64,000 nt of DNA from Escherichia phage JoYop. The DNA lies in sequence record OR769032.1; one strand, 5' to 3'. The notes beneath the pieces were generated by a model. It worked only from the letters and a program-made list of their open reading frames with translations, did not search any database and was not told the origin of the DNA. The number at the start of each line of letters is the position of its first letter. The first letter of the stretch is position 1. Both the position numbers and the translations under genes were made by a program. Of this stretch, positions 8,419 to 13,022 are shown piece by piece.

Positions 8419-8501
8419 AATAACCTCATTACAAAAGTAAATGTTAAACAAATTACCGGAATACTAATTAACCAAACAAAACACCACCATAACGAACTCA
8501 T
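8415..8501 (-). CDS. tiny hydrophobic peptide (28 aa)
   Basis: Manual translation MSSLWWCFVWLISIPVICLTFTFVMRLL; stop overlaps next start. Confidence 0.25.
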   Translation of the reverse strand: MSSLWWCFVWLISIPVICLTFTFVMRLL

Positions 8502-8529
8502 AGTTCAATCTCAACGATTTTCATTTTAC

Positions 8530-8736
8530 TCAATAATCCGCTAAAAGATCAACGATTGCATCACGAAGACATTTATTCGCAATACGTTTAAGAGCAATTT
8601 CAGTTTCAGGCGCATTTCGAATAATCATTGAATTCAATTCAGCTTCGGCAAACTGAAGTTCTTTGACTAATTCAGCTTTATATTTTCCTTGACCTTTCTT
8701 AGCTTTTGCTCGTTTTAATTCAGCTGTAGTAAACAT
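8530..8736 (-). CDS. hypothetical protein (68 aa)
   Basis: Track ORF 8530..8835 trimmed to the ATG after the conserved leader (MFTTAELKRAKAKKGQGKYKAELVKELQ...). Confidence 0.5.
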   Translation of the reverse strand: MFTTAELKRAKAKKGQGKYKAELVKELQFAEAELNSMIIRNAPETEIALKRIANKCLRDAIVDLLADY

Positions 8737-8800
8737 TTTATTCTCCAAATCCGTATCAGTTGATAGTTGTATAGTACCACAGTCCTTGTGGTATGTAAAC
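8737..8800 (-). promoter_or_regulatory. early promoter plus leader cassette (type A)
   Basis: Coding strand GTTTACATACCACAAGGACTGTGGTACTATACAACTATCAACTGATACGGATTTGGAGAATAAA-ATG. Confidence 0.6.
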
Positions 8801-8816
8801 CATTTTGTGAAAATTT

Positions 8817-9374
8817 TTAAATGGAAAGATACCATCCGTTGTAGTTACTTTTTCTTACAACCTTACGAAGGTCTTCTCTATCACCGATGAACTTCGGAGT
8901 GTACTGGATGACACCTGGATGAATTTCTTTAGTGTTGAATATAATTATACAGTCTGCGACCTGATGATTTAGAATGGGCCCTAGATTTATTCCAGAACCG
9001 TACGGATACTCTCCGCTGCATCCTGTTGTTACCGAAATCCAACGAGAGTCAGTTTGATGTGTTTTGACTTCTACTCGAAGACCGCAGTATTTTGGATGTG
9101 CCAAAACATCCCATGCATATGTATACGGGTCATCGACATCTTCTTGACCTTTGTTAACATACCCGCTTAGCCAATCTGCTACAAAAAATTCTGCGTACAC
9201 AGCGATACGGCATCTTTCGATAACTTCTGCCTTATCCTGATTTGGATTTTGCTTTAAAGAATATCTTGCAGTATCAGCAATTTTGACCTTCATTTCACTA
9301 GTCAAGTCACCGTTCGATAGGGTAAATGTCGGAATCTGAAATAGTCTCTGTAGCCCCGGATTCGTTTTCTGCAT
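8817..9374 (-). CDS. denB: endonuclease IV DenB
   Basis: 185 aa, same size and position (next to rIIB region) as T4 denB. Confidence 0.8.
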   Translation of the reverse strand: MQKTNPGLQRLFQIPTFTLSNGDLTSEMKVKIADTARYSLKQNPNQDKAEVIERCRIAVYAEFFVADWLSGYVNKGQEDVDDPYTYAWDVLAHPKYCGLRVEVKTHQTDSRWISVTTGCSGEYPYGSGINLGPILNHQVADCIIIFNTKEIHPGVIQYTPKFIGDREDLRKVVRKSNYNGWYLSI

Positions 9375-9636
9375 TTAGACTTTCCTTTTTACCGCTGAGA
9401 TAAGCGTTATACACTTTAAGAGTACCGTAGTAAATTCGATCGTTTTCATCTAAAGACTCGCGGTCAAGTTCATCGAGTTCCTTTTTATCCATGACTATAA
9501 CATCATTACAGTAAAGAAACCCAAGTTTTTCGTGACCAAACTCAAATTTATTACAGTACACAATATTAGCGTGATGATTTCCGTGTAGTTTAATCTCTTT
9601 TATGTCGGAATCACCGATATTCATACAATAAATCAT
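9307..9636 (-). CDS. hypothetical protein (109 aa)
   Basis: Track ORF; overlaps denB start by 68 nt in another frame; SD AAGGTAAA before first ATG. Confidence 0.45.
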   Translation of the reverse strand: MIYCMNIGDSDIKEIKLHGNHHANIVYCNKFEFGHEKLGFLYCNDVIVMDKKELDELDRESLDENDRIYYGTLKVYNAYLSGKKESLNAENESGATETISDSDIYPIER

Positions 9637-9653
9637 AATTTACCTTAAAACAA

Positions 9654-9669
9654 AAGGGCCGAAGCCCTT
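9654..9669 (-). terminator. terminator hairpin (AAGGGC-UUCG-GCCCUU)
   Basis: Perfect stem with tetraloop; part of a 30-bp block also found at 9880-9910. Confidence 0.5.
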
Positions 9670-9862
9670 ATTTAAATTGTTCAATTCTTTTCTCTAGACA
9701 TTCAGCATAAGATTTCATTGAGATAAACTGTGAAAGCAGTAATTCTTGTTCAACTTCATTAACTGTTAGAAACTTCGTGCTTTCTAAAAATTTGCCCAGT
9801 GCATTAATTTTGAGCATTAATTGTTCGTATTCTTCTTTTACTCGTGCTTGATAACCTAGCAT
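9668..9862 (-). CDS. hypothetical protein (64 aa), predicted helical/coiled
   Basis: Track ORF; ends with the same EQFK-stop-terminator sequence as rIIB. Confidence 0.5.
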   Translation of the reverse strand: MLGYQARVKEEYEQLMLKINALGKFLESTKFLTVNEVEQELLLSQFISMKSYAECLEKRIEQFK

Positions 9863-9879
9863 AATTTTCCTTAGTATGA

Positions 9880-9897
9880 TAAGGGCCGAAGCCCTTA
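9880..9897 (-). terminator. terminator hairpin after rIIB (UAAGGGC-UUCG-GCCCUUA)
   Basis: Perfect hairpin overlapping the rIIB stop codon. Confidence 0.55.
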
Positions 9898-10833
9898 TTT
9901 AAATTGTTCAGTAACGTCTTCAACTACTTCGTATTGGCAGGTACGCATTTTAGCATCGTTGTAATCAATCGGAATTGATACTACATCACGAGGATGTACT
10001 TTAACTTTTACAACTCGGCTGGTTGAACTGCCAAAGTGACGAATATAAGATTTAGAACACACATGCAGACCACGAGAACAAGTTTGTGTATCATCGTCAT
10101 TCACACGAGTACGTGGCATTTTAACTACTTTACCCGGACTGTTATCAAAGGTATTTGAGTGACAGTCAAAGTAATTACTGCGAACTACTTTCCAAGCATA
10201 GAAGTAACCATCTTCTGTAATTTCAATATCGTTTGCTACCAAGAAATCAAAGAGTCGAGATACCGCTTTCTGGCTCGGGTTTTCCAACAGATTTTCCAAG
10301 AACGGAAAATAGAATTCAAAGTTTTCGCCTTTTTCCATCGAGTCAAGAATACGATCAACCAGACCAGACCGTAATTCGATATTTTGATAGAACAAGCTTC
10401 CACCTTCAATTCGAACATCGCCGGAAATATATTTTTCAACAGCGCGACGAACATTAATTTTTTGTGCTGCTTCTTCCAACTTATCCGCTACGAGCAGATT
10501 AAGAATTTCCTGGAAGTTTGAATGAGTGTTAGGAGTTGCGTTATAAGTTACACCATCAACGGTAATTGAAATGAATTTTTTAGATGCATTCCAAATAATG
10601 TCAGATTTAGCAACTGGAGCAATAGCTGCATCGCTCTTAACTGTAACTGTAATGTCACCGCTAATGGTAACTTTGGAGCGCTCAGCTTCTTCAGCATTTT
10701 TCAAAACACGACGGATTGTGTCCACCGATACACCTTGCCAATCAGCCAATTCCTGTTGGGTGTAATTACCACTTGAATACAGTTTAACGATTTCAGCTTG
10801 TTCGTTTTTGGTCAGGCATTTAATATTGTACAT
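9895..10833 (-). CDS. rIIB: rIIB protein
   Basis: 312 aa, MYNIKCLTKNEQAEIVKLYSSG...; same size as T4 rIIB; adjacent to rIIA. Confidence 0.9.
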   Translation of the reverse strand: MYNIKCLTKNEQAEIVKLYSSGNYTQQELADWQGVSVDTIRRVLKNAEEAERSKVTISGDITVTVKSDAAIAPVAKSDIIWNASKKFISITVDGVTYNATPNTHSNFQEILNLLVADKLEEAAQKINVRRAVEKYISGDVRIEGGSLFYQNIELRSGLVDRILDSMEKGENFEFYFPFLENLLENPSQKAVSRLFDFLVANDIEITEDGYFYAWKVVRSNYFDCHSNTFDNSPGKVVKMPRTRVNDDDTQTCSRGLHVCSKSYIRHFGSSTSRVVKVKVHPRDVVSIPIDYNDAKMRTCQYEVVEDVTEQFK

Positions 10834-10844
10834 AATTTTCCTTA

Positions 10845-13022
10845 TTAGGCCGCAAGGGCCTTCATAGTTTTAGCGATTTGGGAAACTTCATCATCACTTA
10901 AAGAGTTGCGATAACCGATGAAGTCGGAAACAATACGGAATTTCTTGGTAAACTCAGCAACCATTTTATCACTGTTTTTTGAAGCATTATATGATAATTT
11001 ATCAAAAAGATTAGTTACTGTCCAGATGTCATGACCGATGGTATCTTTTCCACCGTTGAAATATACACCCTGTAATGAACTAACCATATTAGCGAGTCGT
11101 GTATATTTTTCAGAAACTTCATCTGTACTAAAGTACTTCATCATAAAATCTAACTCAGGATACTTGATGATTTTATCAATATATCGTTTAGCTGAACTTG
11201 AATAACCTACGTACTCATCATAATCTACATCATCAAAAGCATCTACATATAAATCACGCACAGTTTCAAAAATACATTGGCACTGACCAAGTTCTTTTAC
11301 CTTTTTCTGTAAAAGAGGACGAATAACATAAAATTCATTAATGCCAATAAGATTAGCCATACGAATCAAAATATTCATAGATGGATTACAAAGAGATGTA
11401 GTACCATCCATAGAAAAAATATCAGAACGATGCATAAACGCTACATAACCAGTAATTTCATCTGCTTCTGATGTAAGCGTAAATAGTTCTTCTTTTTCCC
11501 AACGCCCATCTTTAATTTCAAACTTAAACGCTGTAGCAGCTTTAGGACGAGGAGCTTTACTTTTAACTGCCTTCGGAATATAACTTTTAACTAAAGCTTC
11601 AATTTCTGACAAATAATGAATGTTAACTTCATCACTTTCAAACATCGCCATAATATCAGGAAGTAAATCAATTTGTGATTCTACTTCCGGGTTAATAAAC
11701 AGAAGACGCTCATTATGATGAATATTTAAAGTGTTATTAAATTCACTATCATCTAACGCATGTGCTAATCCACGGACAATATTAACACGATTTTTAATAT
11801 CATCAATAACGATATTAATTTTTGTTGTATTAATACCAAACAGACGATAGCTTGATGCAACGGCTGAAGTTTCATGGCTTTGCTTAATGCGTTTCAGTCG
11901 AGGGTCAAGATTTACTTCATACACAACCCCTGCATTACATAACTTACTATCAGGTTCAAACATGCTCTGCATCTTCTTATATGACAGATTTTTAGTCGTG
12001 AATTTGACTGAATTACTAATCATATAATCTCGAGCAGAATACCCCATCTTCATTAATTCGCGATATGTGTGACGAGGAGATGTAGATTCTTTAAATCGTT
12101 TTACATCTTCATTGAATGCCTTCTCACTAAGCTCTTTAACTCGTTCAATAATATTTTTACGAGTACGATCATCCAGTGAAAGAGCCTCGCGAGATGGAGC
12201 AATATCAAGTGAACCCATTGGAAACTTAATGTAATTCACTTCATTGCGAATGCTTAACCAATTACGCTCTCTAATAACACCATCAATAGGATAAACAATA
12301 CCGCCATATATGGCATACAATCCGCCGCGATCTGGCCAGTATCTTTCTGGATTTACGCCATAATAATCATCAAAATCTGGAAAATAATCAATTTCGCGGT
12401 CAAGACCATTAATGATAGCCAAATCTTTGAACGGTCGCATGATATAAGAAACTTCATAAGCAAAGTTTCTAAAGTCTTTTTCTTCAACTGGAACTACGAT
12501 TTCAATACCAGTTTTATCATCTGGACCCATTTCTTTTACGAATGTAGGTTTAATCTGTGGACCATCGCCATCCATATAAGCTACATAACCACGAATTTCG
12601 CCTTTATGATACGAAGTAATACTAAACGTATCAGTATAACTAAACGGAGATTTAGAACCTAAACCAAATCCACCAATGAAATCGTTGGATTCGGCTTTAG
12701 ATGAACTGAAGTATGAATTATACAAACCAGGAGAATTATCATCACCCTGAATATCAAAATCACTCATACCTGGACCAAAATCTCGGCAAACAAATCGTGG
12801 ATCTAATCGTCCAGGAACTTGAATGATAAATTTTTCAGGATTTCCATTGAGTGCATGAGCATCAATCATGTTAGTAATTAATTCACGAACTACTGCGCGA
12901 ATCTTGTTTGTATATAAATCAGACGACAGAATTTTAAATACTTTAGGAGATGCTGTGATGCTAAATGCTTTTGATTTAGAACCATTGCCCAGAATTGTTT
13001 CTTTTTCAGTGGTGATAATCAT
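10845..13022 (-). CDS. rIIA: rIIA protein
   Basis: 725 aa, same size as T4 rIIA; ATPase-like segments. Confidence 0.9.

What the first reader, a model, noticed from the sequence alone, without database searches (positions are those of the whole stretch)
9649..9915. Duplicated rIIB 3-prime end and terminator bracket a 64-aa ORF
A ~30-bp block (aagggccgaagcccttatttaaattgttca) occurs twice, at 9654-9685 and 9880-9911. It contains the terminator hairpin and the last codons, so both rIIB and ORF 9668..9862 end in EQFK-stop. This looks like the footprint of a small gene module inserted by recombination at a terminator.
Basis: seen in the sequence. Interest (0 to 1): 0.4.

Follow-up and report, generated by a model that had tools for sequence, protein, structure and literature searches.

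The report
Hairpin repeats flanking T4's anti-Thoeris sponge gene
The 30-base repeat is real, but it is two copies of a common T4-type "stop codon plus CUUCGG hairpin" cassette flanking an old resident gene, denB.1, already shown in T4 to be an anti-Thoeris sponge; it is not the scar of a recent gene insertion.

Summary
Observation confirmed: an exact 30-nt direct repeat (9654-9683 and 9881-9910, 227 nt apart) holds the last four codons (EQFK), the stop codon and a C(UUCG)G hairpin of both rIIB and the 64-aa ORF.

- **The ORF.** It is T4 gene denB.1 (89% identical), a Pfam PF21825 "Sequestin" protein. A 2025 preprint showed that the T4 protein (there called Y16O) blocks type I Thoeris and that a purified family member binds 3'cADPR.
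- **Insertion reading.** The order rIIB - denB.1 - DUF7418 - denB holds in seven T4-type genera. Six of them lack the identical downstream hairpin copy, so the repeat does not mark the gene's arrival.
- **The two copies.** The rIIB hairpin is ancient and its stem covaries. The copy after denB.1 is specific to Tequatrovirus and is the only one with a U-tract, so it alone looks like a terminator.
- **Allele.** Most Tequatroviruses, T4 included, have a degenerate denB.1-end version. The window's exact allele is a minority, probably made by short-tract gene conversion from the rIIB end.
- **Loss.** Mosigvirus (RB69 and 155 other records) lacks denB.1 and keeps a single hairpin.

All parts are known kinds; interest is low to moderate.

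The parts
9895..10833 (-). rIIB (312 aa), ending ...DVTEQFK-TAA
   Evidence: ORF list. phrog_609 RIIB, E=3.8e-111. The C-terminal DVTEQF motif is shared with JS98, Bp7 and VR20 rIIB, so this end is native to rIIB.
9881..9910 (-). Repeat copy 1 (hp1): last 4 codons of rIIB, TAA, and the C(UUCG)G hairpin AAGGGCUUCGGCCCUU (core 9883-9894). No U-tract follows.
   Evidence: RNA fold -11.9 kcal/mol, z=-2.7. Not called terminator-like. A CUUCGG hairpin follows rIIB in every genus examined; 4 of 6 stem pairs show compensatory changes and 96.7% of cells pair. The 30-mer at this site is exact in roughly 200 Tequatrovirus records.
9863..9880 (-). Rest of the 32-nt rIIB-denB.1 spacer, with the Shine-Dalgarno AAGGAAAA before the denB.1 ATG. 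Too short for a promoter.
   Evidence: Sequence. Gap length 32 nt. Family D1 SD/start repeat. Only a weak 9/12 sigma-70-like match, spanning the hairpin.
9668..9862 (-). denB.1 (64 aa), ortholog of T4 denB.1/Y16O: Sequestin-family (PF21825) 3'cADPR sponge, anti-type-I-Thoeris
   Evidence: 89% identical to T4 denB.1. PF21825 at 68.8 bits against a cut-off of 24.8. phrog_774. AF2 helical hairpin, pLDDT 96.9. Contact residues R7/E11/Q45/R59 present and conserved. Function of the T4 protein shown in bioRxiv 10.1101/2025.07.12.664507.
9654..9683 (-). Repeat copy 2 (hp2): last 4 codons of denB.1, TAA, and an identical hairpin (core 9656-9667)
   Evidence: An identical hairpin at this site was found only in Tequatrovirus among the genera compared. 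Two allele classes exist in Tequatrovirus; the window carries the EQFK allele with no spacer.
9647..9655 (-). U-tract (UUUUGUUUU) directly after hp2. Together with hp2 it forms the only intrinsic-terminator-like site in 8500-11200 on the coding strand apart from one inside rIIB.
   Evidence: scan_promoters_terminators. Other annotators call a terminator at the equivalent position, e.g. G2133.
9307..9636 (-). DUF7418 ORF (109 aa), the next gene downstream, starting 31 nt after the denB.1 stop
   Evidence: PF24193 E=9.5e-37. Orthologs follow denB.1 directly in other genera. Intact in 10 of 18 Tequatrovirus loci and deleted or truncated in 8 of 18, including T4.
8817..9374 (-). denB (endonuclease IV). 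The 185-aa ORF overlaps the DUF7418 3' end; the conserved 158-aa form would start at the ATG at 9291-9293.
   Evidence: phrog_1360 E=5e-97. RB69, JS98 and PaulHMueller annotate 477-nt genes.

Best explanation
The repeat is two copies of a T4-type intercistronic cassette, a stop codon fused to an extra-stable C(UUCG)G tetraloop hairpin. The copies flank denB.1, an ancestral resident gene of the rIIB-denB region that encodes a Sequestin-family sponge for the Thoeris signal 3'cADPR.

The upstream copy (after rIIB) is ancient and kept for its structure. It has no U-tract, so rIIB and denB.1 are most likely co-transcribed, with the hairpin acting as an RNA 3'-end or stability element or a weak attenuator (inferred).

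The downstream copy arose in the Tequatrovirus lineage, or in the Tequatro+Mosigvirus ancestor. It separated denB.1 from the DUF7418 gene it abuts elsewhere, and with its U-tract it is the intrinsic terminator of the rIIA-rIIB-denB.1 unit (inferred from sequence).

Both genes acquired the same derived ending, ...QF-K-TAA-hairpin. Most Tequatroviruses, T4 included, have a degenerate denB.1 end: GCA CAA TTC AAR TAA, then a 4-6-nt spacer, then the hairpin. The window belongs to a minority allele in which those differences (A61E, loss of the spacer, and in most members TTC>TTT) all match the rIIB end. The most likely cause is a short-tract gene conversion or template switch that copied the rIIB 3' end onto the denB.1 3' end. 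It is not an insertion scar.
For: - **Gene identity and function.**, and the preprint read. The preprint's T4-Y16O primers equal the T4 denB.1 ends read.
- **Ancestral position.** The same gene order holds in seven genera.
- **hp1 is ancient and structural.** It is present in all genera, with compensatory stem changes.
- **hp2 is lineage-specific.** Other genera have the denB.1 stop 1-8 nt from the next ATG.
- **Only hp2 is terminator-like**.
- **Dispersed cassette.** 7 exact GGGCTTCGGCCC copies and 15 perfect CUUCGG hairpins in the window, mostly directly after TAA. The motif class is described by Tuerk et al. 1988, cited via PMC8948821.
- **Direction of copying.** rIIB's DVTEQF is shared with Dhaka- and Gaprivervirus. 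The class-A denB.1 end GCA-CAA-TTC matches the orthologous GCA-CGA-TTC of Kanagawavirus CIP9.
- **Allele classes.** Exact-repeat length ranges from 9 to 30 nt across 18 Tequatrovirus loci. The class-E allele is found in about 16-24 of about 450 records.
- **Composition.** No anomaly in denB.1.
Against: - **Polarity of the two alleles is not settled.** E61 is also the consensus of the wider family. Two class-E genomes keep TTC between the converted sites, which needs a patchy tract, a TTC-type donor (one such rIIB end exists) or a later mutation. Class E could instead be the original copy, with class A derived by slippage.
- **Coincidence explains part of the identity.** Cassette ubiquity, plus an ancestral F near both C-termini, means some of the match needs no copying.
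- **No transcript data were examined.** The terminator and stabiliser roles are inferred from sequence only.
- **The window's own allele (E61) was not tested for Thoeris inhibition.** Only the T4 ortholog was.
Confidence: 0.72

Rival explanations
1. One reading: denB.1 arrived as a small module by recombination at the rIIB terminator, duplicating the target (the rIIB 3' end plus hairpin) on both sides.
For: The geometry fits: direct repeats flank a single small ORF. The sister genus Mosigvirus has the 'empty' arrangement with one hairpin.
Against: denB.1 occupies the same slot in six other genera that lack the identical downstream repeat, including lineages outside the Tequatro+Mosig clade in the rIIB tree. 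No Tequatrovirus has an empty site. The class-A denB.1 3' codons are orthologous to those of Kanagawavirus rather than to rIIB. Composition is unremarkable.
Confidence: 0.05
2. Class E (the window's allele) is the original state. A roughly 30-nt copy of the rIIB 3' end was laid down after denB.1 once, in the Tequatrovirus ancestor, and this phage simply retains it. The common T4-type allele then arose by an E61A change plus 4-6-nt slippage duplications in the AAATAA run.
For: The class-A spacers (ATAA, AATAA, AATAAA, AAGA) look like slippage products of AAATAA and are heterogeneous, whereas class E is uniform. E61 is the family consensus. Class E with TTC needs no patchy conversion.
Against: Class A's GCA and TTC codons both match the Kanagawavirus ortholog. 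Class E is rare. Keeping 30 of 30 nt identical since the origin of the genus, while flanks diverge 4-6%, would be surprising without conversion or selection.
Confidence: 0.2
3. No copying at all: both ends are independent instances of the genome-wide stop-hairpin cassette, and the EQFK/QFK match is coincidence helped by an ancestral phenylalanine in both proteins.
For: The cassette (A)AATAA(A)GGGCTTCGGCCCTTT recurs at other gene ends in the window. denB.1 orthologs end RIxxF and rIIB orthologs end TEQF.
Against: Both genes gained the same derived extra codon (K) plus stop plus an identical hairpin in the same genus. In class E, 30 of 30 nt match, including synonymous positions. The full 30-mer has no third copy even at 3 mismatches.
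Confidence: 0.1
4. The identity is maintained by selection because the 30-mer (RNA or DNA) is a binding or processing site for a phage or host factor that must act at both gene ends.
For: The rIIB-end 30-mer is strikingly invariant: exact in roughly 200 records.
Against: The denB.1-end copy is degenerate in most Tequatroviruses, including T4, T2 and T6. Other genera keep only the hairpin structure, not the sequence. There is no Rfam match.
Confidence: 0.05

Closest known systems
T4 denB.1 (UniProt-style name Y16O) / Sequestin family, Pfam PF21825 'crAss001_48 related protein'
   Same: 64 aa, 89% identical, and in the same position between rIIB and denB. PF21825 hit well above the cut-off. The four 3'cADPR-contact residues reported for SequestinB (R7, E11, Q45, R59) are present at the same numbering. 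The predicted all-helical hairpin is consistent with the described antiparallel homodimer.
   Different: 7 substitutions relative to T4, including A61E in the tail created by the repeat allele. The activity of this allele is untested.
C(UUCG)G hairpins of T4 intercistronic regions (Tuerk et al. 1988 PNAS, cited in PMC8948821)
   Same: Same loop and closing pair, the same intergenic location just after stop codons, and many copies per genome.
   Different: Here two neighbouring copies also share 14 nt of upstream coding sequence, giving identical protein C-termini.
PeSL (promoter-early stem-loop) mobile regulatory cassettes of T4-type phages (Arbiol et al. 2010, PMC2839356; Comeau et al. 2014, PMC4122927)
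   Same: A stem-loop plus Shine-Dalgarno plus start codon flanks a small non-essential gene. Recombination between such repeats is the proposed route to gene loss, gain and mini-circles. The Mosigvirus junction looks like a solo-repeat product.
   Different: There is no sigma-70 early promoter or AT-rich UP element. The spacers are 32 and 31 nt against roughly 100 bp for a PeSL. The repeat extends into coding sequence. No indel polymorphism exists within the genus.
Other phage immune-signal sponges (Tad1, Tad2, Acb2, Acb4)
   Same: Small, oligomeric early accessory proteins that sequester nucleotide immune signals. PF21825 domains are found fused to Tad2 and Acb4.
   Different: The fold and family are unrelated. 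No PADLOC or NCBIfam model matches.

Membership tests
Sequestin (PF21825) 3'cADPR sponge | Pfam PF21825 domain above the gathering threshold | tested here: met
   68.8 bits against a cut-off of 24.8, E=3.8e-19, covering residues 4-61. The profile search returns 412 PF21825 clusters.
Sequestin (PF21825) 3'cADPR sponge | Short (~60-80 aa) all-alpha protein, usually free-standing | tested here: met
   64 aa. AF2 model with pLDDT 96.9 and helices at 4-27, 29-33 and 36-61.
Sequestin (PF21825) 3'cADPR sponge | Conserved ligand-contact residues (SequestinB R7, E11, Q45, R59; E, Q and R are essential) | tested here: met
   R7, E11, Q45 and R59 are present in the window protein and in all 18 Tequatrovirus copies. 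Q45 is invariant and R7/E11/R59 are at least 90% conserved in a 49-sequence family alignment. Residue roles come from the preprint.
Sequestin (PF21825) 3'cADPR sponge | Antiparallel homodimer with two interface pockets that bind 3'cADPR | not testable with these tools
   Only monomer prediction is available. Foldseek against PDB gives generic helical hairpins only (best E=0.59).
Sequestin (PF21825) 3'cADPR sponge | Inhibits type I Thoeris in vivo | not tested
   Shown for the T4 ortholog Y16O (= denB.1, 89% identical) knocked into SBSphiJ, per bioRxiv 10.1101/2025.07.12.664507. Not shown for this allele.
PeSL cassette (Arbiol 2010) | Stable intergenic stem-loop | tested here: met
PeSL cassette (Arbiol 2010) | [quoted passage not shown] | tested here: not met
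   The spacers are 32 and 31 nt. The only hit is a 9/12 match that spans hp1 itself and is absent from many alleles.
PeSL cassette (Arbiol 2010) | Flanked gene is present or absent between closely related phages | tested here: inconclusive
   No presence/absence polymorphism within Tequatrovirus. The gene is absent from sister genus Mosigvirus, which keeps a single hairpin, but the deletion end-points cannot be assigned to the hairpins.
Rho-independent terminator | GC-rich stem-loop immediately followed by a U-tract | tested here: met
   Met for hp2 (9654-9669 plus UUUUGUUUU). Not met for hp1, whose tail is AUCAUACUAA.
C(UUCG)G tetraloop hairpin class (Tuerk 1988) | UUCG loop closed by C-G, intercistronic, with the stem maintained by compensatory change | tested here: met
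   4 of 6 pairs have double-sided changes, and 0 of 500 shuffles reach the observed covariation score.
Insertion with target duplication | Outgroups and close relatives show the uninterrupted target (one repeat, no ORF) | tested here: not met
   Six other genera carry the ORF. Only Mosigvirus lacks it, and it is nested among carriers in the rIIB tree.

The most novel reading that the evidence does not exclude
The two stop-hairpin cassettes work as a promoter-less, PeSL-like recombination pair that makes the anti-Thoeris sponge gene an excisable and re-insertable cassette. On this reading the Mosigvirus solo hairpin is the excision scar, and the exact 30-mer in a minority of Tequatroviruses reflects ongoing gene conversion between the copies. 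In those phages the 30-mer would raise the rate of denB.1 loss or mini-circle formation.
Probability: 0.15. Interest if true: 0.45.

Novelty: already known. Interest (0 to 1): 0.25.

Why it matters
The practical gain is correct annotation. The "hypothetical 64-aa ORF" next to rIIB in hundreds of T-even genomes, often mislabelled "endonuclease", is an ortholog of an experimentally validated counter-defence gene, the Sequestin 3'cADPR sponge. It is absent from the whole Mosigvirus group. That predicts a difference in Thoeris sensitivity between two phage genera widely used in therapy collections. The repeat is a small, clean example of how dispersed CUUCGG stop-hairpin cassettes can homogenise neighbouring gene ends, even rewriting a protein's C-terminus (A61E). 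They can also create short direct repeats around accessory genes. It does not reveal a new kind of element.

Tried and rejected
- **IMG/VR scan with the denB.1 protein** gave only 5 loci, so the allele survey rests on 18 Tequatrovirus loci plus BLAST summaries. Allele frequencies are therefore approximate.
- **Structure search.** Foldseek against PDB gave only generic helical hairpins (best E=0.59). The afdb50 library was unavailable. A PDB sequence search gave nothing.
- **Family libraries.** PADLOC and NCBIfam had no match. Rfam had no match in 8500-11200.
- **Literature.** Searches for 'denB.1' and 'crAss001_48' were unproductive. The function came from searching the Pfam accession. The T4 genome review (PMC150520) is not held.
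- **Mosigvirus deletion end-points.** I tried to decide whether the deletion used the two hairpins or the SD/ATG regions by comparing the T-rich spacers by eye. They match the Tequatrovirus hp2 tail and the Marfavirus hp1 tail about equally well, so this is unresolved.
- **Promoter across hp1.** I considered one (TTTAAA-16-TATCAT) and rejected it as a chance match, because it is missing from many alleles.
- **Foreign origin of denB.1.** Rejected on composition: GC is within the 5-95% range of 195-nt windows.

Full report
**1. The observation**

The window carries an exact 30-nt direct repeat at 9654-9683 and 9881-9910, 227 nt apart. No third copy exists even at 3 mismatches, and none appeared in shuffles. 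All genes here are on the minus strand. There the block reads T GAA CAA TTT AAA TAA GGGCTTCGGCCC TT.

rIIB (9895-10833, 312 aa) and the 64-aa ORF (9668-9862) therefore both end EQFK-stop, with the stop codon fused to a C(UUCG)G hairpin.

Two qualifications apply:
- Only the copy after the 64-aa ORF is followed by a U-tract (CCCUUUUGUUUU) and scores as terminator-like. The copy after rIIB is a stable hairpin (-11.9 kcal/mol) with no U-tract.
- The hairpin core is a dispersed motif. GGGCTTCGGCCC occurs 7 times in the window against 0.02 expected, and there are 15 perfect CUUCGG hairpins, 13 of them on the minus strand like these genes, usually immediately after a TAA stop. This is the classical T4 intercistronic CUUCGG hairpin (Tuerk et al. 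1988, as cited in PMC8948821).

**2. What the ORF is**

It is the ortholog of T4 gene denB.1: 64 aa, 89% identical, in the same slot between rIIB and denB.

It hits Pfam PF21825 ('crAss001_48 related protein') at 68.8 bits against a cut-off of 24.8, and phrog_774. A profile search finds 412 clusters of mostly free-standing ~63-aa proteins, in T4-type, crAss-like and T5-like phages. AlphaFold2 with a 49-sequence alignment gives a confident helical hairpin (pLDDT 96.9). Foldseek against PDB returns only generic coiled-coil hairpins.

The function comes from the literature. bioRxiv 10.1101/2025.07.12.664507 names PF21825 'Sequestin'. It reports that:
- 10 of 13 tested members inhibit type I Thoeris;
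- purified SequestinA binds and depletes 3'cADPR;
- AlphaFold3 models the proteins as antiparallel homodimers with two interface pockets;
- E11, Q45 and R59 (SequestinB numbering) are essential.

[quoted passage not shown] The primers it lists for T4-Y16O are the 5' and 3' ends of T4 denB.1 as I read them, so Y16O is denB.1.

The window protein has R7, E11, Q45 and R59 at the same numbering, as do all 18 Tequatrovirus copies examined. These positions are invariant or nearly so across the family.

**3. Is the repeat an insertion footprint?**

No. The order rIIB - denB.1 - DUF7418 ORF - denB is conserved in:
- Tequatrovirus;
- Dhakavirus (JS98, Bp7);
- Gaprivervirus (VR20);
- Kanagawavirus (CIP9);
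- Marfavirus (P545), plus an unclassified Klebsiella phage (kv_tblp8) whose rIIB is identical to P545's;
- Winklervirus (Virsaitis27).

Every one of them has a CUUCGG hairpin right after the rIIB stop. The stems differ by compensatory changes (GGAGGC/GCCUCC, GGGGC/GCCCC, GGGGAC/GUCCCC, GGAGAC/GUCUCC). Four of six pairs show double-sided changes, 96.7% of cells pair, and 0 of 500 shuffles reach the observed covariation score.

Outside Tequatrovirus, however, the denB.1 stop lies 1-8 nt from the DUF7418 ATG with no hairpin. Winklervirus has an unrelated one. The gene is therefore older than the downstream repeat copy.

Within Tequatrovirus I found no empty site. About 497 records match the rIIB end at 90% identity or more, and about 496 carry denB.1 at 80% amino-acid identity or more. 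Every junction class in a spread sample retains denB.1; the variable part is the DUF7418 ORF downstream. denB.1's GC content (30.3%) lies within the window's 5-95% range.

**4. Where the repeat comes from**

rIIB's DVTEQF ending is shared with Dhaka- and Gaprivervirus, so that end is native to rIIB. denB.1 orthologs end RIARF, RIQRF, RISYFGE or RISNFDF. In Tequatrovirus both genes show the same derived ending: QF, then K, then TAA, then GGGCTTCGGCCC.

Across 18 Tequatrovirus loci the denB.1 end falls into two classes.

| Class | denB.1 3' end | Members |
|---|---|---|
| A | GCA CAA TTC AAR TAA, a 4-6-nt spacer, then the hairpin | T4, T6, Shfl2, ZN18, P922 and others |
| E | GAA CAA TTY AAA TAA, then the hairpin directly | window, PaulHMueller, G2133, Sa45lw, Sf23 (exact 30-mer); BCPEco_001, SHFML-11 (one mismatch) |

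The longest exact repeat per genome ranges from 9 to 30 nt. From BLAST summaries, class E accounts for roughly 16-24 of about 450 records. The rIIB-end 30-mer itself is exact in roughly 200 records.

Class A's GCA-CAA-TTC is one transition from the orthologous GCA-CGA-TTC of Kanagawavirus CIP9. That suggests class A is the older state. Class E would then have arisen by a short gene-conversion or template-switch tract copying the rIIB end, changing A61 to E, removing the spacer and, in most members, changing TTC to TTT.

This polarity is only moderately supported. E61 is also the family consensus. The TTC-bearing class-E genomes need a patchy tract or a TTC-type donor; one rIIB end with TTC exists.

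**5. Presence/absence at genus level**

RB69 (Mosigvirus) has rIIB-TAA-TAATT-GGGGACTTCGGTCCCC-TTTTTTCTTTAGGGGTAATT-ATG(DUF7418), with no denB.1. In all, 156 records share that junction. A six-frame HMM scan of the whole RB69 genome finds no Sequestin ORF: best E is 0.32, against 4.6e-29 for the window's copy as positive control.

In an rIIB neighbour-joining tree, RB69 is sister to Tequatrovirus. Dhaka+Gaprivervirus come next, and Marfa-, Winkler- and Kanagawavirus lie outside. One loss in Mosigvirus is therefore the parsimonious reading.

The product, one hairpin plus a T-run plus SD plus DUF7418, is what recombination between two flanking hairpin copies would leave. A deletion between the SD/ATG regions of an ancestor whose rIIB hairpin already had a T-run (as in Kanagawa-, Marfa- and Winklervirus) would give the same result. 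I could not discriminate between the two.

**6. How it most likely works**

- **Shown:** gene identity; family membership by domain and contact residues; hairpin conservation and covariation; terminator-like features at hp2 only; spacers of 32 and 31 nt, which leave no room for a promoter.
- **Inferred:** denB.1 is co-transcribed with rIIB as an early gene, so the sponge is made before Thoeris signalling builds up. hp1 acts as an RNA structural or stability element. hp2 terminates or attenuates the unit.
- **Consistent with the inference:** DUF7418, which lies downstream of hp2, is intact in only 10 of 18 Tequatrovirus loci and carries several different deletions, including in T4.

**7. Comparison with known systems**

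All the parts are known: the T4 denB.1/Y16O Sequestin sponge, CUUCGG hairpins and an intrinsic terminator.

The nearest concept for repeat-flanked small genes in T4-type phages is the PeSL cassette (PMC2839356, PMC4122927). This element fails the PeSL's defining promoter criterion and shows no within-genus indel polymorphism. It can be said at most to resemble the stem-loop half of a PeSL.

**8. Verdict**

The insertion interpretation is not supported, although the gene is a dispensable accessory unit that one sister genus has lost. Novelty is low: the gene and the motif are already described. The allele-level homogenisation of two gene ends is a minor new detail. Interest 0.25.

Noticed in passing
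window 9307-9636 (minus); L001 2161-2243; L002, L003, L004, L023: The DUF7418 ORF (109 aa, PF24193) just downstream of the terminator copy is intact in 10 of 18 Tequatrovirus loci. In 8 of 18 it is cut to 4-40 codons by at least three different internal deletions. T4 itself retains MIYMNIGDSDIKE fused to the 3' end, about 211 nt missing.
   Followed up: partly
window 8817-9374 vs 8817-9293 (minus): The 185-aa denB ORF overlaps the DUF7418 3' end by 68 nt. RB69, JS98 and several Tequatrovirus records annotate a 158-aa DenB starting MKVK (ATG at 9291-9293). T4's 185-aa annotation may be an upstream over-extension into the DUF7418 remnant.
   Followed up: no
L001 (NC_000866) 2205-2262 and 2439-2490: The T4 reference has 1-nt G/C deletions in both hairpins (GGCTTCGGCCC after rIIB, GGGCTTCGGCC after denB.1). 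Other T4 records (KJ477684, OZ035787) carry the exact 30-mer at the rIIB end. This looks like an old gel-compression sequencing error or a lab-strain mutation.
   Followed up: partly
window, e.g. 890, 5235, 7041, 15176, 25910, 38983, 41153, 45863, 47133, 49502, 63485: There are 15 perfect N4-CTTCGG-N4 hairpins in 64 kb, 13 of them on the minus strand, mostly directly after a TAA stop. Several share (A)AATAA(A)GGGCTTCGGCCCTTT, which makes them a dispersed stop-hairpin cassette family.
   Followed up: partly
L027-L031 (RB69, NC_004928): Mosigvirus RB69 has no Sequestin/PF21825 ORF anywhere in its genome (six-frame HMM best E=0.32), and 156 records share its denB.1-less junction. This predicts a difference in Thoeris sensitivity between genera.
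   Followed up: yes
many GenBank records under the denB.1 match: denB.1 orthologs are frequently annotated 'endonuclease', apparently by name bleed-through from denB. The crAss-phage homologs are annotated 'shock protein C'. Both labels appear to be wrong for a PF21825 sponge.
   Followed up: no
L024 3001-3192 (Bacteroides phage PhiCrAssBcn13): The crAss-phage family member, the Pfam family's namesake, is a 63-aa gene lying between two giant genes annotated as putative RNA-polymerase subunits.
   Followed up: no
L011 (IMGVR_UViG_3300010279_000008), rIIB end: This genome's rIIB ends CAA TTC AAA TAA, not TTT, matching its own denB.1 end. It could be a conversion in the reverse direction or a chance synonymous change.
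   Followed up: no
window 9876-9903 (minus): A weak sigma-70-like match (TTTAAA-16-TATCAT, 9/12) spans the rIIB hairpin. It is present only in alleles with the TTATCAT spacer, so it is probably chance.
   Followed up: partly
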